Shown one piece after another: positions 26,578 through 59,890 of a stretch of 64,000 nucleotides of DNA. The notes beneath the pieces were generated by a model. The model saw only the letters and a program-made list of their open reading frames with translations. It was not told the origin of the DNA and did no database searches. Within the stretch, counting starts at the first letter, position 1; every line of letters begins with the position of its first letter. The stretch is from a virus: the IMG/VR virus record IMGVR_UViG_3300042359_000621, one strand, 5' to 3'. Position numbers and translations under genes: made by a program.

Positions 26578-26829
26578 AGTCAAGAATCAAGGTTTACCAA
26601 TGTAGTTTGTTGGTAAATAGTTAACCAGTCTAAGCTCTTTACTGAGCTACGTTATTGGGAAGTGTTTAAGTTCATACCTTGGGATGCGTTGCCAGTTCCA
26701 AGCTCTATAACTAAGTGATTAAACAGATGTACAGCAATTAAGTCAGTGTCACTTAGATAGTACCGCCCAATAACATTGACGAGGCACACATTACCCGATT
26801 TATCGGAGGCTCGAAAGAGTTATTTTTAA
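26578..26829 (+). ncRNA. Structured leader, candidate omega-RNA-like scaffold upstream of the IscB-type ORF remnant
   Basis: TATAAT at 26566-26571. Nested helices: 26593-26600/26610-26617 (8 bp), 26651-26659/26766-26774 (9 bp, long range) and 26711-26718/26749-26756 (8 bp). A CTC-GAAA-GAG tetraloop sits near the ATG. Confidence 0.35.
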
Positions 26830-32031: not shown

Positions 32032-32340
32032 TTCCGTTGTTATAAGAATATCAACACATAGATTATATCAAAAAATATTTTGATTTTTATATCTCTTTAA
32101 TACAGAATCAAAATATTTTTTTGATTTACCTGTTGCCAATTGCTCCTGATAATGGATTTAATTTGCCAATGCGTATTCTAATATTGCCTGATAATCAGGA
32201 AAGTGATAGGCTATTTGACCCCCAAGGAGTGAGAGTTCTTTTAGTGCGGATGCGTATCTATCCTTTGTTGGTGAATTCATTTTTTATTAATGCTTACTTA
32301 GGTTTAACCCCTCTAAATATTTAGAGGGTTTATTTTTTGA

Positions 32341-32550
32341 TTAGCTCATGCTCAATATAAACGCCTCTTGTTCCTCAATGACTCGCCATTCCTGTCTATC
32401 TTCTTCGAGCCAATTGATATTTTTAGCTAATTCGGCACAGTACATCGCCCGTTTTTGTTCAACAGTCCATCTAGGGAGCGCGAAGGCATCCGTAAACAGA
32501 TCCGCGTCGGATGATAAGGACTGATAAGCTAACAACGCCACGGCTTTCAT
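32341..32550 (-). CDS. Second ORF of cassette copy 1 (homolog of 56612..56950)
   Basis: C-terminal WLEEDRQEWRVIEEQEAF matches WTMEDLQE..DWRVIREQEQF. Homology continues upstream to 32706 in frame, without a start codon. Confidence 0.45.
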   Translation of the reverse strand: MKAVALLAYQSLSSDADLFTDAFALPRWTVEQKRAMYCAELAKNINWLEEDRQEWRVIEEQEAFILSMS

Positions 32551-32706
32551 TTTGCCCTGTTGCGCGGCGTAAATCTTGAGCCGTTGCCAGTCCGAGAGGG
32601 AGATCGTCGTTGCCTTTGTGCCACCGCCGTTGATGGAATCTAGTTCTGCCTCAACCGGTAAGCCGGTATAACCTATACCCTGAAGGGCTTTGAGTGGTAG
32701 AAACCT

Positions 32707-33399
32707 TTATTCCGGTTCGTAGGTTAAAACAATACCCATATCTTGACAATGAGACTCTACCAATAAAATAAAATCTGGACTCGCGCATCCAAAGAAGTGA
32801 ATCCGTTTTTCATGCTCTGGATAATACTTTCCATAACAGAAAACCTGTCCTATAGCTTCTTTCCATCGTTTCCAATCTTTGATCTCGATTAATTGAGTGT
32901 CGGTTAAAATGTCGATTCTCCCAGCTAATGTTGAGACTTCGAGCTTTGCATTGAGTAAAGTTTTTGCCAGTTTCTTCTGTATGATCTTCTCGACTTGATT
33001 AGGGTTTAATGTCTTTTTAATTCGAGGCTCTAACGATGTTGCACGTTCTATCTTTGAGTTTTTTGTTAGTAATCTCATGGCGTCTCTTTTTCCCTCAGAT
33101 GCAGCAAAAGATATTAAGACATCAAAATCTGACTGTGAAAGCGTCTGAGCGCACCGACCACCGCCATTAATACTTTCACATACTACAGGAATAAACTCGC
33201 CCGTATAACCCATTCTTTCTAATGTCTTCGAGGCTTTGCCAACCCTGCTAGTGATCTGAGTCAACCAGTTTTCCGCATACCCTAAAGCCAAACTCGCCCC
33301 AACCATCCCAACTCGGAACTCGCCATTGGGCATCATGTACCCATCAACAGAAATTCCTTCTACATATTCGATAGTTGCCCGTTGTGATTTAATTGTCAT
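32707..33399 (-). CDS. Cassette copy 1: weakly Bro-N/KilA-N-like N-terminal domain fused to a C-terminal PD-(D/E)XK-like nuclease domain
   Basis: Paralog of 55951..56559. The C-terminus STLAGRIDILTDTQLIEIKDWKRWKEAIGQ has a D...ExK arrangement. Confidence 0.55.
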   Translation of the reverse strand: MTIKSQRATIEYVEGISVDGYMMPNGEFRVGMVGASLALGYAENWLTQITSRVGKASKTLERMGYTGEFIPVVCESINGGGRCAQTLSQSDFDVLISFAASEGKRDAMRLLTKNSKIERATSLEPRIKKTLNPNQVEKIIQKKLAKTLLNAKLEVSTLAGRIDILTDTQLIEIKDWKRWKEAIGQVFCYGKYYPEHEKRIHFFGCASPDFILLVESHCQDMGIVLTYEPE

Positions 33400-33428
33400 T
33401 GTGACTATTTCCTTAATTAATGGTTACG

Positions 33429-33481
33429 GCTCCTGGGTGCGACGAACACCGCGAGGAGCATTTCTATTATTAATTATATCA
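33429..33481 (-). promoter_or_regulatory. Extended -10 promoter (TGATATAAT) plus conserved leader hairpin, cassette copy 1
   Basis: The minus strand reads TGATATAATTAATAATA, then GCTCCT-CGC-GGTG-loop-CACC-C-AGGAGC. It covaries with the copy at 55867..55918. Confidence 0.5.
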
Positions 33482-33631
33482 ATATTTTATTAGTTTGTCT
33501 GTTAATTAAGCCACGTCAAACAAACTTAATTGCTTAAATTCCGGTTGTTTTAACTCCATGATTTCTAACTCTGTTTCTGAATATTCCCTGGGTTGGGAGA
33601 TGCGATCGTGTGATACAATATAATCAGATTA

Positions 33632-53584: not shown

Positions 53585-55816
53585 ATGGTCACAATTTCAA
53601 GTTATCAAAATCTCCTTCGCTTTGATGCTGCTCCTACGGAAGTGCAGATGAAACTTGGTATTTCTCAAGTTTTGTCGATGCCATTTGCCTACAACTCTCC
53701 GGTTATCGTTCTGGACTTTGAAGTAGGCAATAAAAACATCATCAAGGGACGGTTTAAGGATGCCATTAGATCCCGTGTTTTTGAGTTTGAGATTGGGGAT
53801 TCTATCACGTTCAAGCCGTTCACCTGGAGGCGAACGGATAGCGACGTTGACCCGATGGCGTGGGAAGACTTCTCTAAAGGGTATTGCTACCGATTCGATG
53901 CAGTTAAGACCGTCAGAAAGGAAAAACCTAAGTGTGGCAATACCTCCTATAACTGCGGCAAAGCCTGCATTGGCTTAAACAAGAATTGCAAATCAGATCC
54001 CCCCGATAAACCGTCCCAGGAGAAAGTCGATAAACTCAGAGCCGCAGCAGGGGAGTTTAAAGCTGTTCAGGGCGATCCAACCAAGAAGCAAGAGGATAAT
54101 AAGTTAACGCCAAAACCACAGGAAGTTAAGGCGGTTAAGACCAAAACTGCTAAGGGCGCGATCGCTAAATCAGAAACACCACCAAAAACACCCAAGACAA
54201 CTAGACCCAAGGTAGGGACAAAGCAGTATGACGAATGGCTAGAAACCGAATCTCAAAAACTCAAGGGTAAAGATGGGGAATATGTAATTAAAACCCGTTC
54301 GGGGGATGAGACGGTCAAAGGAACCGTTTATGGCAATGGATTGGGGATTAATCCAAATAAAGGGTCTTTGTACAACACTCACAGCGTTACGCACATCGGC
54401 AGTGGCAGATCGTTGGGTGATTTTGATGATGAAGTTCAGGCTAAAAAGGCATTAGTTGAGTTGAACCGATCCGGCGTTAATTGGAGCGAACAAGACTTAA
54501 CAAAAATTCCAGGGATAGAGAAGAAAATAGTCAAAGTTAAGGGCTTGATAGATAATGCCAAAGACTCGGACTTAAGGGTTAAACGGGATGCTAAAAGGAA
54601 GGTGATAGAGGAAAAACGAGCTAAAGACGATGCCAAAATTGAGGCTGGTATGCAAAGGTTTAGAGAGGAAGAAGCTAAGAAAAAACAACAGGCTGAAATA
54701 GACAGAAAAATACAAGAGGAAAAAAATAAGGTAGAGCGTGAAAAGCAAGTTGAGGCTATGAAAAAGATGGCAGAAGATCAAGCAAAAGTTTATCAAGATT
54801 ATGAGATCAATAGAACAAATCAACTGATCGGAGAATTGAAATCATCCTTTGATGTTAAGTCATTGGAGTCTGAAGTTAGCGTGCTGGAATCGAGGCTAAA
54901 GACGGAATCATCTCCCAAGGCAAAAAAAGAGTTAAACCAACGATTAAATAATGCAAACATCAAACTAAAGGAGGTTAAAACATTTTTATCTCAGGACAAA
55001 CTTGAAACCTATCCCGCTTTTTTGAAATCCAGAGTAAAGGGAATGGCTAATACTGTTGGGATTGAAAAAACCAGGGAGATTTTACAGGAGCAAATTGACA
55101 ATTACAAGAAACAAGTAAAGGAGGAGCCAAAGCAAAAAACAATAAAAGTTCAAGGGGAGCGATCGCAAGAACAAGAATCCCCTCTAATTCCGAAAGAAGA
55201 AATAGTTAAAGAGGCTCCTAAGCGAATTGGGGATGGAACCCAAAAAAGCTCCCCTCTTAATGCTCAGGAATACCACAAAATGATGGTTGAGAGAGGGAAT
55301 AATATCTCAATAGAAGAAGCTGAGGAAACTGTTAAATCAATCGTGTCGTGGAAACTTAGAAACGATGCCATAAGAGGAGATCAGCAACAAGGAAAGCCCA
55401 ATAAAGATGCAGATAACATTGATAACTTTATCAAAAACTCTACACCTTATGAGGGAATGGTCGCTAGAGGGCTTAAGTTTTTCAGTAAAGAGGAAGCAGC
55501 AAACTTTATCAAAGGGGATGAGAATGGGATATTAAATAACCAGTCTGCTCATGCTTCATGGACTTCTGATTTTGATCAAGCTAAGAGGTTTGCTGATGTA
55601 GAGTCAAAAACAAATCCCTACTGGAAGGAATATTCTGAAAATCTTTATCCTGTGATTGTCCTTGCCAAAAATAAAACAGGTGTTCCAGCCCAAAATACAG
55701 GAGATGGATTACATAGTAACGAAGCCGAGGTTATTGTTTCAAAGAATACAAGGCATAAAGTTGTTAGGGTGATAGATAGAGATGGAATTATTTTAGTGGA
55801 AACCGAAGAAGTGTAA
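53585..55816 (+). CDS. Head-module paralog 2: shared N-terminal module, K/E-rich coiled coil and a C-terminal ADP-ribosyltransferase-like domain
   Basis: N-terminal module as above. The C-terminus has VARG (R), ASWTSD (S-x-S) and NEAEVIV (E-x-E) with spacing typical of R-S-E ARTs. Confidence 0.6.
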   Translation: MVTISSYQNLLRFDAAPTEVQMKLGISQVLSMPFAYNSPVIVLDFEVGNKNIIKGRFKDAIRSRVFEFEIGDSITFKPFTWRRTDSDVDPMAWEDFSKGYCYRFDAVKTVRKEKPKCGNTSYNCGKACIGLNKNCKSDPPDKPSQEKVDKLRAAAGEFKAVQGDPTKKQEDNKLTPKPQEVKAVKTKTAKGAIAKSETPPKTPKTTRPKVGTKQYDEWLETESQKLKGKDGEYVIKTRSGDETVKGTVYGNGLGINPNKGSLYNTHSVTHIGSGRSLGDFDDEVQAKKALVELNRSGVNWSEQDLTKIPGIEKKIVKVKGLIDNAKDSDLRVKRDAKRKVIEEKRAKDDAKIEAGMQRFREEEAKKKQQAEIDRKIQEEKNKVEREKQVEAMKKMAEDQAKVYQDYEINRTNQLIGELKSSFDVKSLESEVSVLESRLKTESSPKAKKELNQRLNNANIKLKEVKTFLSQDKLETYPAFLKSRVKGMANTVGIEKTREILQEQIDNYKKQVKEEPKQKTIKVQGERSQEQESPLIPKEEIVKEAPKRIGDGTQKSSPLNAQEYHKMMVERGNNISIEEAEETVKSIVSWKLRNDAIRGDQQQGKPNKDADNIDNFIKNSTPYEGMVARGLKFFSKEEAANFIKGDENGILNNQSAHASWTSDFDQAKRFADVESKTNPYWKEYSENLYPVIVLAKNKTGVPAQNTGDGLHSNEAEVIVSKNTRHKVVRVIDRDGIILVETEEV

Positions 55817-55866: not shown

Positions 55867-55918
55867 GTTATAATTAATAATAACAAACGCCTCTCGCGGT
55901 GCGCTAACACCCAGAGGC
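55867..55918 (+). promoter_or_regulatory. Extended -10 promoter (TGTTATAAT) plus conserved leader hairpin, cassette copy 2
   Basis: TGTTATAATTAATAATA, then GCCTCT-CGC-GGTG-loop-CACC-C-AGAGGC at 55889-55918. Confidence 0.5.
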
Positions 55919-55950: not shown

Positions 55951-56559
55951 ATGTCGGATATTGTAAGATCAATCCGTGCCGAATTGGAACTAGGCAACAG
56001 AAGTATTGACTGCTATCTATTCCCAGATGGGGAGAAACGGATCGGAATTGGTGGCGCGAGTATTGCCATCGGACGGAGTAAAGAGTATTTGGGTCGCTTA
56101 TTGAAAAGCGAATCAGAGGATCTCGGAAAACTCAAAATCATGGGATTCTGTGGAAAAATTGTCGAAACGGAGTTTCTGTTTGGGAGAGGATCTACTCGCT
56201 CCAAAACTATTTCTTTGGCTGATTTTGATATTCTGATGATGTTTTTTGTTGACTTGCGGATGAAAAAAGAAAAGAAAAATCCTGAAGGTATTGTTAGGGA
56301 TAAGTTATTAGAACAGTCAGGGGGATCTAAAGAGGTTTCTACATTGGCAGGAAAGATAGACATATTAACCCCATCGCAAATAATAGAAGTAAAACAGGTT
56401 AATGGATGGAAAGGGGCTTTAGGACAAGTTTTAGTCTATGGATATTATTACCCGTCTCATCAGAAAAGGATTCATTTGTTTGGAGAGTGCCATAGTAGCT
56501 ATCTCGATATTATCCAAAAACATTGTCAAGAATTTGATGTTATTGTTACATGGGAATAA
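55951..56559 (+). CDS. Cassette copy 2: weakly Bro-N/KilA-N-like N-terminal domain fused to a PD-(D/E)XK-like nuclease domain
   Basis: Paralog of 32707..33399. C-terminus STLAGKIDILTPSQIIEVKQVNGWKGALGQ. Confidence 0.55.
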   Translation: MSDIVRSIRAELELGNRSIDCYLFPDGEKRIGIGGASIAIGRSKEYLGRLLKSESEDLGKLKIMGFCGKIVETEFLFGRGSTRSKTISLADFDILMMFFVDLRMKKEKKNPEGIVRDKLLEQSGGSKEVSTLAGKIDILTPSQIIEVKQVNGWKGALGQVLVYGYYYPSHQKRIHLFGECHSSYLDIIQKHCQEFDVIVTWE

Positions 56560-56611
56560 GATTTACCAGGTCGGCTAAACGGAGTCTAAAGCCCTCAAAG
56601 AGCTACAGGGT

Positions 56612-56950
56612 ATGGGTTTCACAGGTCGCACAAAAGACACTGAGGTTAAGATAGCCAGAGGTGCGACACGAAGCAAGACCATCTCATCCAGAGACTTTAC
56701 GAAGTTAATCACATGGGATGCGGTAGTCAATAATAATCAAGATTCCATTATTTTGTTGGCTGCGTTTGCCGAGACGGGGTTGGATGACATATTGGAAAAA
56801 GTCTTCACACGGCAATCGTTGGACTTTCTGTTAGAAAAAATAGTCCACTATAGCAAATGGACTATGGAAGACTTACAAGAAGCCCTCGATGCAAATAACG
56901 ATGATTGGAGAGTGATCAGGGAACAAGAGCAGTTTTTATTAGAGGGCTAA
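56612..56950 (+). CDS. Second ORF of cassette copy 2
   Basis: The N-terminus MGFTGRTKDTEV..TRSKTISSRDF repeats the mid-region of 55951..56559. The C-terminus matches 32341..32550. Confidence 0.5.
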   Translation: MGFTGRTKDTEVKIARGATRSKTISSRDFTKLITWDAVVNNNQDSIILLAAFAETGLDDILEKVFTRQSLDFLLEKIVHYSKWTMEDLQEALDANNDDWRVIREQEQFLLEG

Positions 56951-57082: not shown

Positions 57083-59890
57083 ATGATTACAACTCCCGTC
57101 ATCAAAGCAAACCAATCTAACATGGCTCCCACCGAAGTTCAGATGAAGTTAGCGATCGCGCAAGTCCTATCCCTTCCATTTGCCTACAACTCCCCCGTAA
57201 TTGTCGTTGATTTTGAGGCAGGTAACGGGAATGTGATCAAGGGTAGATTTAAGGATGCCTCCCGACCCCGTATATTTGAATTTAAGATTGATGACTCCAT
57301 AAGTTTTAAGTCATTTACCTGGAAAAGAATAGACAGCGCGGATATCGATCCAGTGGTGTGGGAAGAATTTTCTAAAGGGTACACCTATCGGTATGACGCA
57401 GTTAAAACCAAGAGGAAGGAAAAACCTAAGTGTGGCAATACCTCCTACAATTGTGGCAAAGCCTGTATTGGGTTGAATAAAAACTGCAAATCAGATATAC
57501 CGGATAAACCCTCCCAAGAAAAAGTCGATAAACTCAGAGCCGCAGCAGGGAAATTTAAAGCCGTTCAGGATGATCCAATCAAGAAGCAAGAAGATAATAA
57601 ATTAACGCCAAAACCACCGGAAACAAAACCGACACTAGCGAACGAAGATAAAATGCGCGATACACTAAAGAAAGCTATCGCGGAAAATGAGTTGAATAAA
57701 AGTTTAGCAGAAACAGCTTATCAAAAATACCACCAGTATCAAAACGGACTAAAAAATGAAGCAGAAGGTTTATCATCTCGGTCTATCGCTAGTTTATATC
57801 AAATCCCCCACGCCACTGCTGTAGCTAGAATTAACGGACTTAGAGAAGCTGTTGGACTAGGAGGGTCTAATGCTGTATCTGTTGACAAAGAATTAGGGGG
57901 AAGAATTAACGACCTTTTAAATAATGGGAAACAAATTAAAATTAATTCGTCAGGCGGTCAACTAAAAGATCGGAAAAAAGAACCAAGTCAAACAACAATT
58001 AATGCTGACAAAAAATGGTCTGACTTTTTAGAATCTAAAAATGTTACAGAGAAAGGACTTAGAAAACTAGACCCTGAGACTAGAAAGAAAATTACAGAAG
58101 AATTTGAAAATACTCGGATTGAAGAAAGGGCTCAGGAGTCAAGCAAAAGGAAAGGTCTATCACTACCTGAAGACCCCAAACCATCCCCAAATTCAACAGG
58201 GGTTAAGGGTGCGGGGGGTAAGACACTTGACCTAAAAGATTTGTGGCAACAGACAGCCGACGCTGCTTATTCTAAAAATAAAGATGGGGTCTCAAAAAAT
58301 CTTGAGCAATGGAAAGAAGTTGTTAAAAAACTAGAGTCAGGGGAGGGAATTTCTAAAGATGTTAACTTAAACGAATACGAAAAGTTGATGGATAATTTAG
58401 AAAGAAAATTAGTCCTTAACCCAAAAGATCCGTCTAATGTCGAGTTTAAAAAAATTACTGGGTCTATTTATAGAACTCTTGACAAGGCTGTAAGATACGA
58501 TCCGTTAACTCAGGAAGATTTAGAAAAAGCTCACCCCAACTTTAGACCCATCATGCAACGGATGAAAAAAACCGTTACCAAGGTAAACGAATTATCCGGT
58601 AAAAAACAGCAATTACAAAAGGAATTAGACACATTAAAACACAGACAATCTTATAACGAGCTTATAGTCAAATCTAATTCAAGGCAATTTCGTGAAACGG
58701 CGATTGACAATAATTATAATGAGCTTAGGCTCCTTACGATGCGAAACCCGAATGACATGATAGAAGTCAGAAATCCAGTATCTAATCTCCCAGAAAGGAC
58801 AGTATCCATCCCGACAAGGATTAATGAGATCAACAAAGATATTAGAGATTTGGCAGACGATAAAAAGGCTGTGGAGTCTTCAGATCGTGCTAAGGGCGAA
58901 ATAGCTAAATTACAGACCAAAATTAAAGATGCTGAAAGTCGGGCAACTTCCTTAGATGGTGAAATTAAGGCGTTAAGAGAATCGAGAGGAACGGGATCTG
59001 TTTTATCAGAACCTAAGTCAGCCCCTATTCCTGCTGTAGCACAAAGAGCGATCGCTAAAACCAAGACTGACAAACCCCCTGTTAAATCGGTTGATCAACA
59101 ATACAAGGATATTATTGCCAGTTCTAAAGATCCAAAAGGAACAGAGGAGGCTTTGTCATCGGCACTCAGAGGCGGTATAGGTGACTTCGAGAGAAAGAAT
59201 TATAACGAGTATTTAACTGCGATAGCTTCTGGGACAGTCCCAAAAGGAATGGGAGACTATTATCAAAAGCAAATTGATAAATATAAGCCCGTTATTGATG
59301 CCGAAAACTTCATAAACGAGAGACGGCAAAAGGCAAAAGCAGGTGATTATGAAACAGAATCAGAAGCAGGGGTTTATATTCTTGATAAACTAAAACAAAA
59401 AGGCTACAAAGAGCATGAATATTATGATAGTCCAGACTATAAAATGGATTATGACAAATTAAAAACCGTAATGAAGTCTATGGAATTACCTCCCCCTCTG
59501 TCTGGTAATATTCCTAGTAAGGAATTAAAACAGACACTAACTCAGGGGGATAAATTGCTAGTTAAAGAAAGCACTTATTCTATGATGGGAGGAAGTTCCC
59601 CTGCGGGTTATCGAATTGTTGACGGTGGCGAAGTTCTAAAAGTTAATGTCAAGAATGTTAAAACAAGAGTCCAGGGCGAGTATATGGGGAAACCTTATAA
59701 AAATGAGCCATCCCTTGCCCTTGATACAGTTACCCACGTCATCCGAGATGGTAAACGTTACAAAGTAGATGATTCTGATAGTTCCCCTAACGACTTAAAG
59801 CCTGAAGTTACTCAACCCCAGAAGGCAGTAAAACAAAAGTCAATAAAACAAAAGGCGATAAAAGTTCAAGAGGTGCGATCGCAAGGTTAG
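57083..59890 (+). CDS. Head-module paralog 3: shared N-terminal module plus a long C-terminal region of unknown function
   Basis: The N-terminal 165 aa are about 80 percent identical by eye to paralog 2. The remainder is unrelated to it. Confidence 0.6.
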   Translation: MITTPVIKANQSNMAPTEVQMKLAIAQVLSLPFAYNSPVIVVDFEAGNGNVIKGRFKDASRPRIFEFKIDDSISFKSFTWKRIDSADIDPVVWEEFSKGYTYRYDAVKTKRKEKPKCGNTSYNCGKACIGLNKNCKSDIPDKPSQEKVDKLRAAAGKFKAVQDDPIKKQEDNKLTPKPPETKPTLANEDKMRDTLKKAIAENELNKSLAETAYQKYHQYQNGLKNEAEGLSSRSIASLYQIPHATAVARINGLREAVGLGGSNAVSVDKELGGRINDLLNNGKQIKINSSGGQLKDRKKEPSQTTINADKKWSDFLESKNVTEKGLRKLDPETRKKITEEFENTRIEERAQESSKRKGLSLPEDPKPSPNSTGVKGAGGKTLDLKDLWQQTADAAYSKNKDGVSKNLEQWKEVVKKLESGEGISKDVNLNEYEKLMDNLERKLVLNPKDPSNVEFKKITGSIYRTLDKAVRYDPLTQEDLEKAHPNFRPIMQRMKKTVTKVNELSGKKQQLQKELDTLKHRQSYNELIVKSNSRQFRETAIDNNYNELRLLTMRNPNDMIEVRNPVSNLPERTVSIPTRINEINKDIRDLADDKKAVESSDRAKGEIAKLQTKIKDAESRATSLDGEIKALRESRGTGSVLSEPKSAPIPAVAQRAIAKTKTDKPPVKSVDQQYKDIIASSKDPKGTEEALSSALRGGIGDFERKNYNEYLTAIASGTVPKGMGDYYQKQIDKYKPVIDAENFINERRQKAKAGDYETESEAGVYILDKLKQKGYKEHEYYDSPDYKMDYDKLKTVMKSMELPPPLSGNIPSKELKQTLTQGDKLLVKESTYSMMGGSSPAGYRIVDGGEVLKVNVKNVKTRVQGEYMGKPYKNEPSLALDTVTHVIRDGKRYKVDDSDSSPNDLKPEVTQPQKAVKQKSIKQKAIKVQEVRSQG

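What the first reader, a model, noticed from the sequence alone, without database searches (positions are those of the whole stretch)
32341..33399. Two inverted paralogous two-ORF cassettes ending in a PD-(D/E)XK-like domain, each with an internal segment duplicated into the second ORF
Copy 1 (32707-33399 plus 32341-32706, minus strand) and copy 2 (55951-56559 plus 56612-56950, plus strand) have the same architecture. ORF A has an N-terminal domain (..PxGExRxGxxGASxAxG.., weakly Bro-N/KilA-N-like). It continues with a mid segment (MG(Y/F)xG...GG..(T/S)(L/I)S..DF..L). It ends in a C-terminal domain with GxIDILTxxQxIE(I/V)K...GQ, which fits a D...ExK nuclease core. ORF B begins by repeating the mid segment of ORF A and ends with W..ED.QE..DWRVI.EQE.F. 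In copy 1 the two ORFs are in the same frame, separated by a single TAA. There is no ATG, GTG or TTG in the 52 codons before the annotated Met. This looks like an ancestral gene split by insertion of a nuclease module with target duplication (homing-endonuclease-like behaviour). Alternatively it is a deliberate two-protein system whose members share an interaction segment. One copy sits between head-module paralogs 2 and 3, a sign of mobility.
Basis: partly seen in the sequence, partly recalled or inferred. Interest (0 to 1): 0.7.

Follow-up and report, generated by a model that had tools for sequence, protein, structure and literature searches.

The report
Mobile in-frame nuclease cassette splitting phage genes
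Two genes of this Planktothrix cyanophage have each been split by a roughly 500-base mobile cassette that fuses a restriction-enzyme-like nuclease onto the front of the gene and leaves the rest of the gene stranded downstream; it behaves like a homing endonuclease, but with an unusual in-frame design.

Summary
The window is a relative of Planktothrix phage PaV-LD. It has two inverted two-ORF cassettes with the architecture described, and the repeated "mid" segment is significant (E 7e-12 and 1e-10).

- **What the host gene is:** both cassettes are split versions of a 172-178-aa gene family, phrog_32599.
- **Empty-site alleles exist:** uninterrupted alleles occur at the same loci in related phages. 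For copy 1, window 32697-33264 (568 nt) replaces 31 nt, with flanks 97% identical. For copy 2, window 56094-56576 (483 nt) replaces 11 nt, with the right flank 98.5% identical.
- **What the insert encodes:** its own diverged copy of the second half of the host N-terminal domain (mid*), a linker, a ~100-aa nuclease domain and a stop codon. The N-terminal domain looks KilA-N/Bro-N-like by structure only. The nuclease domain has an alpha-beta-beta-beta-alpha-beta core and invariant D...ExK.
- **Evidence of mobility:** the insert and the host gene have incongruent histories, and the insert is under purifying selection.
- **The repeat:** it is not a fresh target duplication, because mid* travels with the nuclease.
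- **Readthrough:** TAA readthrough is not conserved.
- **ORF B:** it is most likely the displaced 3' part of the resident gene.

Self-promoted homing is inferred, not shown.

The parts
33473..33501 (-). Sigma-70-like promoter of copy 1 (CAGACA, 17 nt, TG-TATAAT)
   Evidence: The -10 box followed by 'TAATAATA' is conserved upstream of family members in other loci.
33429..33459 (-). Conserved leader stem-loop of copy 1 (GCTCCTCGCGGTG...CACCCAGGAGC), immediately after the -10 box
   Evidence: The motif occurs only twice in the window, once before each cassette. It lies upstream of family genes in 15 loci. RNAalifold predicts 11 pairs, 9 of them with compensatory changes.
33265..33399 (-). Resident 5' part of the host gene (codons 1-45 of ORF A, copy 1)
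   Evidence: Part of the left flank (window 33265-33608) that is 97.1% identical to the empty-site allele L009/L010. Protein identical to intact P0009 through 'AENWL'.
32697..33264 (-). Inserted cassette of copy 1 (568 nt): co-converted stretch, its own LKALQG-like motif, mid*, linker, nuclease domain, TAA and a 12-nt spacer. It replaces 31 nt of the intact allele.
   Evidence: blastn against the intact alleles L009/L010 and L007. Boundaries are ambiguous by about 2 nt.
33067..33234 (-). mid* of copy 1 (ORF A residues 56-111). This is the insert-borne second half of the N-terminal domain.
   Evidence: 45% identical to the resident mid, E 7e-12. 70% identical to mid* of L003, while the resident mids of the two loci are 55% identical. 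The mid* sequences form a clade. dN/dS 0.10-0.17.
32710..33006 (-). PD-(D/E)XK-type nuclease domain of copy 1 (ORF A residues 132-230). Catalytic D163 and E172-x-K174.
   Evidence: AF2 model pLDDT 95.3 with topology alpha-beta-beta-beta-alpha-beta-alpha-beta. Invariant D, ExK and GQ, and nearly invariant E, in 47 diverse homologs. Foldseek hits to nuclease folds. 1670 homologous clusters. dN/dS 0.07-0.11.
32341..32696 (-). Displaced resident 3' part of the host gene, copy 1 (mid' plus C-tail, 'ORF B'). The first canonical start is the ATG at 32550. The stop is 32341-32343.
   Evidence: Part of the right flank (window 32177-32696) that is 97.3% identical to the corresponding part of intact L009/L010. 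Matches phrog_32599 positions 59-175, E 3.9e-34. No ATG, GTG or TTG in the first 52 codons.
32309..32328 (.). Palindromic terminator-like hairpin after copy 1
   Evidence: Conserved in L007.
55889..55918 (+). Conserved leader stem-loop of copy 2 (GCCTCTCGCGGTG...CACCCAGAGGC), preceded by TATAAT
55951..56093 (+). Resident 5' part of the host gene, copy 2 (P0177-like allele)
   Evidence: Part of a left flank that is 83% identical to intact L041. N-terminal protein sequence matches that of P0177. The same insert sits behind a P0170-like N part in L025/L043.
56094..56576 (+). Inserted cassette of copy 2 (483 nt): mid* (56101-56265), nuclease domain (56266-56556), TAA (56557-56559) and a spacer. 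It replaces 11 nt of the intact allele.
   Evidence: blastn against intact L041. tblastn by segment.
56577..56950 (+). Displaced resident 3' part, copy 2 (frame open from 56579; ATG at 56612; 'ORF B')
   Evidence: Part of a right flank that is 98.5% identical to intact L041. 99% identical to residues 53-175 of the intact 175-aa P0170.

Best explanation
Each cassette is a resident phage gene of the phrog_32599 family. The family protein has a roughly 110-aa N-terminal domain with a KilA-N/Bro-N-like predicted fold, followed by a roughly 60-aa helical tail. A mobile nuclease cassette has invaded each gene.

**What is shown**
- The cassette sits at a fixed point, just 5' of the codons for the conserved LKALQGxG(F/Y)TG motif, after about codon 46-56.
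- It reads in frame with the host gene.
- It carries its own diverged copy of the second half of the N-terminal domain (mid*), a roughly 20-aa linker, a roughly 100-aa PD-(D/E)XK nuclease domain, and a stop codon.
- ORF A therefore uses the host gene's promoter, leader hairpin, start codon and first half-domain.
- The resident 3' two-thirds (mid' plus tail) is displaced downstream as ORF B, without a dedicated start.
- The cassette moves between alleles and paralogs of the gene, with variable leftward co-conversion.
- Its coding sequence is under purifying selection.

**What is inferred**
- The fusion protein is an active, DNA-targeted nuclease.
- It cleaves uninterrupted alleles near the insertion point during co-infection, so that repair from the cassette-bearing genome copies the cassette in. 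This would be intron-less homing, as for the T4 seg and mob genes.
- ORF B is mainly a by-product. It may retain some function, or serve as a template for restoring the intact gene.
For: **Split of one gene**
- One PHROG profile of 178 positions covers ORF A residues 1-114 (profile positions 3-116) and ORF B (positions 59-175).
- Intact genes exist: PaV-LD ORF028L and ORF068R, P0009 and relatives, and P0170 and relatives.

**Clean presence/absence polymorphism**
- Copy 1: 568 nt vs 31 nt, with flanks 97.1% and 97.3% identical to L009/L010.
- Copy 2: 483 nt vs 11 nt, with the right flank 98.5% identical.
- Seven intact loci (L036-L042) against two further split loci (L025/L043) at the copy 2 position.

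**Incongruent histories**
- c1 vs L003: N 50%, mid* 70%, nuclease 75%, resident mid 55%, tail 47%.
- L003 vs L024: N 83%, mid* 50%, nuclease 63%, resident mid 71%, tail 61%.
- The same copy 2 insert sits behind two different N alleles.
- The mid* sequences form their own clade.

**Insertion point and co-conversion**
- The left switch point varies. P0002 and P0015 are identical through KTLKALQ. P0003 and P0010 are identical apart from one residue through KALKALQG. The window and P0009 are identical through AENWL.
- The right junction is always just upstream of the LKALQ motif in the window copies, L003, L023, L024 and L054.

**Nuclease**
- AF2 pLDDT 95 with an alpha-beta-beta-beta-alpha-beta-alpha-beta topology.
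- D39, E48, K50 and Q61 are invariant, and E13 is nearly invariant (at least 90%), in 47 homologs.
- Foldseek best hits are Cdn1, Avs4, CdiA-CT, MUS81-EME1 and EcoP15I, with probabilities 0.75-0.98 where listed.
- A weak Cas4 HMM hit.
- dN/dS 0.07-0.11.

**Family context**
- 1670 homologous clusters. The nuclease domain is almost always C-terminal, behind an N-terminal domain of about 105 aa.
- Of 122 representatives, 45 carry the phrog_32599-type N-terminal domain and 23 carry Pfam KilA-N.

**N-terminal domain fold**
- BFVD top hits are KilA-N proteins (E 8.5e-11), followed by many BRO-N and Ant-N proteins.
Against: - No cleavage, target site or homing has been tested. Passive recombination at the conserved motif could give the same polymorphism and mosaicism.
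- The resident LKALQG-coding sequence persists downstream of the insert. A recognition site centred on it would not be destroyed by insertion.
- Homologous KilA-N-nuclease genes sit at one conserved chromosomal position in Kamptonema, Microcoleus and Oscillatoriaceae genomes. There they look like ordinary host genes rather than selfish elements.
- Foldseek E-values against solved structures are weak (best 8e-3). No Pfam, NCBIfam or PDB sequence match supports the nuclease assignment.
- ORF B is intact in every split locus examined. That would also fit a function for it.
Confidence: 0.58

Rival explanations
1. Passive modular exchange. ORF A-type genes (an N-terminal DNA-binding domain plus the nuclease) are an ordinary, useful gene family of cyanobacteria and their phages. 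Possible roles are degrading host or competitor DNA, or exclusion of other phages. General phage recombination at the conserved LKALQG-coding motif pasted the 3' part of such a gene into the related resident gene. The displaced 3' end was left behind, much like orphan modules in polymorphic-toxin loci. The nuclease plays no part in its own spread.
For: - 45 of 122 representative nuclease proteins carry the same type of N-terminal domain, so the ORF A architecture is an established family.
- Chromosomal KilA-N-nuclease homologs sit at a conserved syntenic position in Oscillatoriales genomes.
- Other scars of allele replacement occur at the same locus without any nuclease. In L044-L047 and L050, a 34-codon N-terminal remnant lies upstream of a complete different allele.
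- Short in-register direct repeats flank the inserts and could mediate exchange.
Against: - The right-hand insertion point lies within the same ~15-codon stretch just 5' of the LKALQG motif in five diverged lineages.
- The cassette has repeatedly entered different alleles while staying under strong purifying selection.
- None of this excludes the rival.
Confidence: 0.28
2. A deliberate two-protein system. ORF A (nuclease) and ORF B (mid' plus tail) interact or compete through the shared mid segment. ORF B could act as an inhibitor or immunity factor, or as a partner that restores the function of the original protein. The precedent would be the split NrdA of phage Aeh1.
For: - ORF B frames are open in every split locus seen: window c1 and c2, L003, L023, L024 and L054.
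- In Nostoc and Komarekiella, a nuclease gene is followed by a gene that repeats its whole N-terminal domain (53% over 110 aa, E 3e-37).
- A precedent exists for a phage gene split by a homing endonuclease whose pieces reassemble (PMC3045599).
Against: - There is no conserved start for ORF B. Copy 1 and L023 have the first canonical start only after mid'. L003 uses a TTG Leu codon. Copy 2 uses a naturally occurring internal Met.
- ORF A occurs without ORF B in L005 and L053 with its catalytic residues intact.
- Near-identical intact alleles exist for both window copies. The insertions are therefore recent, and an open ORF B carries little weight.
Confidence: 0.1
3. Recoding. The TAA of copy 1 is read through to make one long N-mid*-nuclease-mid'-tail protein.
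For: In copy 1, ORF A and the downstream frame are in phase and separated by a single TAA.
Against: - In copy 2 and in L003 the two ORFs are in different frames (offsets of 661 and 733 nt, each 1 mod 3).
- In-phase arrangement by chance has probability 1/3.
- The 12 nt after the TAA are spacer, not conserved coding sequence.
Confidence: 0.02

Closest known systems
Free-standing homing endonucleases of T-even phages (seg and mob genes), including mobE splitting nrdA in Aeromonas phage Aeh1 (PMC2988022, PMC2790892, PMC3045599)
   Same: - A phage-borne nuclease gene inserted in or next to a conserved gene.
- Presence/absence polymorphism between related phages.
- Co-conversion of flanking DNA.
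- The host gene can be left as two ORFs.
   Different: - The nuclease here is PD-(D/E)XK-type, not GIY-YIG or HNH.
- It has no promoter or start of its own.
- It is translationally fused to the first ~50 codons of the target gene.
- It brings a replacement for the rest of that domain.
- Cleavage and homing have not been tested.
PD-(D/E)XK homing endonucleases I-Ssp6803I (PF11645, PDB 2OST) and the Vsr-like intron endonucleases (catalogued in PMC3424549)
   Same: The restriction-endonuclease-like fold is used by a selfish homing element. I-Ssp6803I is cyanobacterial.
   Different: - Those are encoded in group I introns.
- No sequence match was found to any PDB chain.
- 2OST is not among the top Foldseek hits.
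- No intron RNA was found in the window.
KilA-N / Bro-N proteins with shuffled C-terminal modules. The concept is from Iyer, Koonin and Aravind 2002, cited from my own knowledge. Structural matches are to giant-virus KilA-N proteins.
   Same: - An N-terminal KilA-N/Bro-N-like fold followed by a variable effector domain.
- BFVD top hits align over both domains (231 columns, E 8.5e-11).
- Some members of the nuclease family carry a true Pfam KilA-N domain.
   Different: - The N-terminal domain here does not reach Pfam KilA-N or Bro-N.
- It does not reach a KilA-N profile by hhalign (probability 0.5%).
- The insertion mechanism that leaves a displaced half-gene has, to my knowledge, not been described for that group.
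Orphan C-terminal modules in polymorphic toxin loci (CdiA-CT and Rhs), cited from my own knowledge
   Same: - An incoming 3' cassette carries a piece of the conserved upstream region.
- It replaces the functional 3' end.
- It leaves the former 3' end as a start-less orphan downstream that begins at a conserved motif.
   Different: - No immunity gene and no secretion system are involved.
- The host gene is a small intracellular phage gene.
- The incoming module is a nuclease that may promote its own transfer.
Fractured genes with split inteins and an inserted endonuclease (PMC2677866)
   Same: A conserved gene is broken in two with an endonuclease gene at the break.
   Different: - There are no intein motifs.
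- ORF A ends in a stop codon.
- The two pieces overlap in sequence content (mid* and mid') rather than abutting.

Membership tests
phrog_32599 (host gene family) | Match to the family profile HMM | tested here: met
   ORF A copy 1 E 2.3e-32 (profile positions 3-116). ORF B copy 1 E 3.9e-34 (positions 59-175). Copy 2 E 6.8e-19 and 2.7e-16.
PD-(D/E)XK (restriction endonuclease-like) superfamily | Core alpha-beta-beta-beta-alpha-beta fold | tested here: met
   AF2 model of the domain, pLDDT 95.3. Elements: H9-23, E28-33, E36-41, E45-51, H52-66, E73-79, H84-96, E100-104.
PD-(D/E)XK (restriction endonuclease-like) superfamily | Conserved acidic residue on strand 2 and (D/E)xK on strand 3 | tested here: met
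   D39 (IDIL, strand E36-41) and E48-x-K50 (IEIK, strand E45-51) are invariant in 47 diverse homologs, as is Q61. E13 is nearly invariant. Both window copies keep all of them.
PD-(D/E)XK (restriction endonuclease-like) superfamily | Significant similarity to a known member (sequence or structure) | tested here: inconclusive
   Foldseek top hits are nuclease-fold proteins: Cdn1 (probability 0.98, E 8e-3), Avs4 (0.92), CdiA-CT 4g6v (0.75), MUS81-EME1 and EcoP15I. No hit has E <= 1e-3. PADLOC Cas4a2 E 0.005. No Pfam, NCBIfam or PDB sequence hit.
PD-(D/E)XK (restriction endonuclease-like) superfamily | Metal-dependent phosphodiesterase activity | not testable with these tools
   Needs biochemistry.
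Homing endonuclease gene | Presence/absence polymorphism at one site of a conserved gene in otherwise similar genomes | tested here: met
   Flanks are 97-98.5% identical, apart from the copy 2 left flank at 83%. Inserts are 568 and 483 nt.
Homing endonuclease gene | Element history incongruent with host gene history; flanking co-conversion | tested here: met
   Segment identities and the mid tree. Variable left switch points. The copy 2 left flank is 83% and the right flank 98.5% identical to the same intact allele.
Homing endonuclease gene | Site-specific cleavage of the element-less allele, and a recognition site disrupted by insertion | not testable with these tools
   Needs in vitro cleavage and mixed-infection experiments.
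KilA-N / Bro-N domain | Match to Pfam KilA-N (PF04383) or Bro-N (PF02498), or a profile-profile match | tested here: not met
   No Pfam hit at E <= 1. hhalign of the N+mid alignment against a KilA-N alignment gives probability 0.5%.
KilA-N / Bro-N domain | Structural similarity to KilA-N or Bro-N proteins | tested here: met
   BFVD Foldseek: Megavirus KilA-N protein E 8.5e-11, four further proteins named KilA-N, and many BRO-N or Ant-N proteins at E 1e-4 to 1e-2. Caveats: the query model has pLDDT 77, and the top hits align over both domains, so part of the score comes from the nuclease domain.
Programmed stop-codon readthrough | The two ORFs are in the same frame in related loci | tested here: not met
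   In frame only in copy 1. Copy 2 and L003 are offset by +1.
Toxin-immunity / two-gene system | Obligate co-occurrence and a conserved translational start for the second gene | tested here: not met
   ORF A occurs without ORF B in L005 and L053. ORF B start positions differ in every lineage.
Group I/II intron or intein | Intron RNA structure, or intein splicing blocks with an uninterrupted frame | tested here: not met
   The only Rfam gathering-level hit in the window is HEARO at 26579-26794. ORF A ends in a stop codon, and no intein or Hint Pfam hit was found.

The most novel reading that the evidence does not exclude
A previously undescribed type of homing element: a promoter-less, start-less PD-(D/E)XK cassette.

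- It inserts in frame into genes for KilA-N-like DNA-binding proteins.
- It hijacks their expression signals and the first half of their DNA-binding domain.
- It supplies its own matching second half, so that it assembles a targeting domain related to the product of the gene it invades.
- The displaced half-gene is kept as a template for restoring the intact allele, or as a modulator.

The same logic, a nuclease fused to a copy of its neighbour's N-terminal domain, recurs in Nostoc and Komarekiella chromosomes and in a very divergent metagenomic lineage (L054). It could therefore be a general strategy of this roughly 1700-cluster nuclease family.
Probability: 0.3. Interest if true: 0.75.

Novelty: new variant of a known kind. 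Interest (0 to 1): 0.6.

Why it matters
- **A different route for selfish nucleases.** Homing endonucleases are usually self-contained genes in introns, inteins or intergenic gaps. Here a nuclease module appears to spread as an in-frame half-gene that borrows the promoter, leader, start codon and half a domain from its target. That would explain how domain-shuffled KilA-N/Bro-N-type proteins arise in viruses.
- **A large unannotated family.** The nuclease family has about 1670 clusters at 50% identity. It is common in filamentous cyanobacteria and their phages, and has structural relatives in giant viruses.
- **Naturally paired alleles for experiments.** Bloom-forming Planktothrix phage populations contain cassette-plus and cassette-minus alleles, including in the same lake samples. 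Cleavage and mixed-infection experiments are therefore feasible.
- **If wrong.** If the homing inference fails, the finding is still a clean example of modular gene replacement that leaves orphan fragments.

Tried and rejected
- **Sequence annotation of the nuclease and N-terminal domains.** Pfam, NCBIfam and PADLOC gave nothing significant. HMM searches of PDB sequences with the ORF A and nuclease-domain profiles also gave nothing.
- **Foldseek of the two-domain model against PDB.** It was uninformative. The domain-only model was needed.
- **hhalign of the N+mid domain against KilA-N.** It was negative.
- **Fresh target duplication.** Rejected. Within-cassette mid*/mid' identity is not clearly above between-cassette identity, and mid* groups with other mid* sequences.
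- **Readthrough.** Rejected because the frames differ in other loci.
- **dN/dS on the displaced part, as a test of ORF B function.** Not informative. Synonymous sites are saturated for most pairs. The only close pair compares a split allele with an intact one.
- **The search for related loci with the broad nuclease alignment.** It failed because no stretch was conserved enough.
- **Literature searches.** They found no description of this family or arrangement.
Full report
**1. Observation**

The window is a relative of Planktothrix phage PaV-LD. The flanks of copy 1 are 95.8% identical to NC_016564.

Copy 1 lies on the minus strand. ORF A is 32707-33399 (230 aa). A TAA follows, and the same frame stays open to 32341. 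The 52 codons before the first ATG (32550) contain no ATG, GTG or TTG.

Copy 2 lies on the plus strand. ORF A is 55951-56559 (202 aa) and ORF B is 56612-56950 (112 aa).

The pairwise similarities are significant:
- A1 vs A2: 36% identity, E 3e-43.
- B1 vs B2: 31%, E 4e-12.
- Mid of A vs start of B, copy 1: 45% over 58 aa, E 7e-12.
- Mid of A vs start of B, copy 2: 48% over 46 aa, E 1e-10.

The same split cassettes occur in independent assemblies. These are L011 (99.2% over the whole cassette), L012, L051, L052, and L025/L043.

**2. One gene, interrupted**

A single PHROG profile, phrog_32599 (178 positions), matches ORF A residues 1-114 at profile positions 3-116. It matches the ORF B frame at positions 59-175.

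PaV-LD itself carries uninterrupted versions. ORF028L (172 aa) sits at the position of copy 1, and ORF068R is 178 aa.

Database searches returned intact 172-173-aa proteins whose N-terminus equals that of copy 1 ORF A, and whose remainder equals the ORF B frame (P0009, P0010 and others). They also returned intact 175-aa proteins that are 99% identical to copy 2 ORF B (P0170).

At the DNA level:
- The empty-site allele L009/L010 matches the window at 97.1% on the left (33608-33265) and 97.3% on the right (32696-32177).
- Window 32697-33264 (568 nt) stands in place of 31 nt (consistent with L007).
- For copy 2, window 56094-56576 (483 nt) replaces 11 nt of L041. The right flank is 98.5% identical and the left flank 83%.
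- At the copy 2 locus, seven viral contigs are intact (L036-L042) and two further loci (L025/L043) are split.

**3. What the insert is**

It encodes, in frame with the first 46-56 codons of the host gene:
- its own L(K/E)ALQGxG(F/Y)-type motif and "mid*" segment (about 56 aa);
- a linker that is disordered in the model;
- a domain of about 100 aa;
- a stop codon and a short spacer (12 nt in copy 1).

*Structure of ORF A.* The AF2 model of ORF A (pLDDT 77) has two domains, residues 1-111 and 133-230.

*The C-terminal domain.* Modelled alone with 47 homologs, it reaches pLDDT 95.3, with topology alpha-beta-beta-beta-alpha-beta-alpha-beta.
- D (IDIL, strand 2), E-x-K (IE[IV]K, strand 3) and a downstream GQ are invariant, and a Glu in helix 1 is nearly invariant (at least 90%), across the 47 sequences.
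- Foldseek against PDB gives weak E-values (best 8e-3).
- The highest-probability hits are nuclease-fold proteins: Cdn1 0.98 and 0.96, Avs4 0.92, CdiA-CT 4g6v 0.75, MUS81-EME1, FANCM-FAAP24 and EcoP15I.
- PADLOC gives a weak Cas4 hit.
- Pfam, NCBIfam and PDB sequence searches are negative.
- I conclude it is a PD-(D/E)XK-type nuclease domain of an unannotated family. Activity is inferred.

*Size and distribution of the family.* There are 1670 clusters at E <= 1e-3 among 1.84 billion representatives.
- The domain is nearly always C-terminal, behind an N-terminal region with a median of 105 aa.
- Of 122 representatives with an N-terminal extension of more than 70 aa, 45 have the phrog_32599-type N+mid domain and 23 have Pfam KilA-N.
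- Genomic hits are in Kamptonema, Microcoleus, Oscillatoriaceae, Snowella, Merismopediaceae, Nostoc and Komarekiella.

*The N-terminal domain.* N+mid does not match Pfam KilA-N or Bro-N, nor a KilA-N profile by hhalign. The ORF A model does hit giant-virus KilA-N proteins (E 8.5e-11, aligned over both domains) and many BRO-N and Ant-N proteins in BFVD. The KilA-N/Bro-N resemblance is therefore structural only.

**4. The repeat is not a fresh duplication**

- Within-cassette mid* vs resident mid identity is 41-52%. Cross-cassette identity is 29-50%.
- In a tree of mid segments, the mid* sequences of the copy 1-type inserts (P0001-P0007) form a clade. That clade is sister to the GGG-type resident mids.
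- Copy 2's mid* groups with another nuclease-fused protein, P0042.
- mid* therefore belongs to the insert and travels with the nuclease.
- Each insert lineage is nonetheless closest to the class of resident mid that it invades. This fits an ancient capture, or co-evolution.

**5. Mobility**

Segment identities show that insert and host gene have different histories:

| Pair | N | mid* | nuclease | resident mid | tail |
|---|---|---|---|---|---|
| c1 vs L003 | 50% | 70% | 75% | 55% | 47% |
| L003 vs L024 | 83% | 50% | 63% | 71% | 61% |

- The identical copy 2 insert lies behind a P0177-like N part in the window and a P0170-like N part in L025/L043.
- The left switch point varies. P0002 and P0015 are identical through KTLKALQ. 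P0003 and P0010 are identical apart from one residue through KALKALQG. The window and P0009 are identical only through AENWL. In L005, DNA identity to the intact allele ends just before the LKALQ codons.
- The right junction is always just upstream of the resident LKALQGxGFTG codons. This holds in the window copies, L003, L023, L024 and the very divergent L054.
- Short in-register direct repeats flank the inserts.
- Where synonymous sites are not saturated, dN/dS is 0.07-0.11 for the nuclease and 0.10-0.17 for mid*.
- Taken together: a fixed insertion point, variable one-sided co-conversion, presence/absence polymorphism, incongruent trees and a constrained nuclease. This is the pattern expected of a homing endonuclease gene. 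No cleavage has been tested.

**6. ORF B**

- The same-frame TAA is peculiar to copy 1. Copy 2 and L003 have the ORFs in different frames, so readthrough is rejected.
- ORF B has no conserved start. Copy 1 and L023 have the first canonical start only after mid'. L003 uses a TTG that is simply a Leu codon of the motif. Copy 2 uses the natural Met of QGMGFTG.
- ORF A occurs without ORF B in L005 and L053, where a KilA-N gene with the same leader follows instead.
- Because near-identical intact alleles exist, the insertions are recent. An open ORF B frame therefore says little.
- I regard ORF B as the displaced resident 3' end. A residual role is not excluded.

**7. A wider pattern**

- In Nostoc sp. 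UCD121 and Komarekiella, a nuclease gene with an unrelated N-terminal domain is followed by a gene that repeats that whole domain (53% over 110 aa, E 3e-37).
- L003 carries a second nuclease gene with yet another N-terminal domain, next to the split gene.
- L044-L047 and L050 carry a 34-codon remnant of one allele upstream of a complete different allele. Replacement scars also arise at this locus without a nuclease, which keeps the passive-recombination rival alive.
- KilA-N-nuclease genes at one syntenic chromosomal position in Oscillatoriales look like ordinary host genes.

**8. Comparison with known systems**

The closest known systems are:
- the free-standing homing endonucleases of T-even phages, including mobE, which splits nrdA in Aeh1 (PMC2988022, PMC3045599);
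- PD-(D/E)XK homing endonucleases such as I-Ssp6803I (PMC3424549);
- the shuffled KilA-N/Bro-N proteins of DNA viruses;
- formally, the orphan C-terminal modules of CdiA and Rhs loci.

The differences here are the in-frame, promoter-less design, the insert-borne replacement of half a domain, and the overlapping displaced half-gene. I rate it a new variant of a known kind.

**9. Verdict**

- The structural and evolutionary reading is well supported: a mobile nuclease cassette inserted into an intact gene, with ORF B as the displaced remainder.
- Nuclease-driven homing is the most likely mechanism but remains an inference.
- Interest is 0.6.

Noticed in passing
window 26579-26794 (+): Full-length match to Rfam HEARO RNA (RF02033; 126.9 bits, E 6.7e-26). 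This is the RNA associated with HNH-endonuclease (IscB-type) mobile elements. It is a second, unrelated mobile element in the window.
   Followed up: no
window 33429-33459 (-) and 55889-55918 (+); also L001, L002, L005 (twice), L007-L014, L020, L048, L049: A conserved leader lies upstream of every phrog_32599-family gene, and of a KilA-N gene in L005. It consists of TATAAT(T)AATAATA, then a stem-loop GCyCCTCGCGGTG...CACCCAGrGGC, then GTAAC. The stem-loop has 11 predicted pairs, 9 with compensatory changes. There is no Rfam match. It could be a 5'-terminal mRNA hairpin or a palindromic operator.
   Followed up: partly
L044-L047 about 2430-2531 (2338-2439 in L044); L050 1620-1721: A 34-codon remnant of the P0170-type N-terminus lies about 280 nt upstream of a complete P0173-type allele. 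This is a scar of allele replacement at the same locus, without any nuclease.
   Followed up: partly
L034 2117-3636 (Nostoc sp. UCD121); L035 2213-3362 (Komarekiella): A chromosomal nuclease gene of the same family has a different N-terminal domain. That domain is repeated (53% over 110 aa) at the start of the next gene. The theme of a nuclease fused to a copy of its neighbour's N-terminal domain therefore recurs outside phages.
   Followed up: partly
L003 5143-5805 (-), also L004 1764-2426 (-): A second nuclease-family gene (220 aa) lies convergent to the split gene. It has an unrelated N-terminal domain and a nuclease domain 62% identical to that of copy 2.
   Followed up: no
window 32176/32177 vs L009 2841-4654: The related contigs L009 and L010 carry about 1.8 kb of extra DNA between the family gene and the NblA/thymidylate kinase genes. 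This DNA is absent from the window, so it is another indel polymorphism next to the cassette.
   Followed up: no
window 53585-55816 and 57083-59890 (+): The two large ORFs flanking copy 2 (743 and 935 aa) share a nearly identical N-terminal ~150 aa. The number of such paralogs differs between related contigs. For example, in L025 the cassette is followed directly by a different gene.
   Followed up: no
L024 about 2040-2110: The ORF B frame of L024 has an extra upstream fragment that begins with a second 'GFTG'. It may be a remnant of an older or nested insertion.
   Followed up: no
P0026 (158 aa): This protein begins exactly at the 'MGF' of the mid motif and consists of mid* plus the nuclease domain only. 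It is either a free-standing form of the cassette or a truncated gene call. Its context could not be looked up.
   Followed up: no
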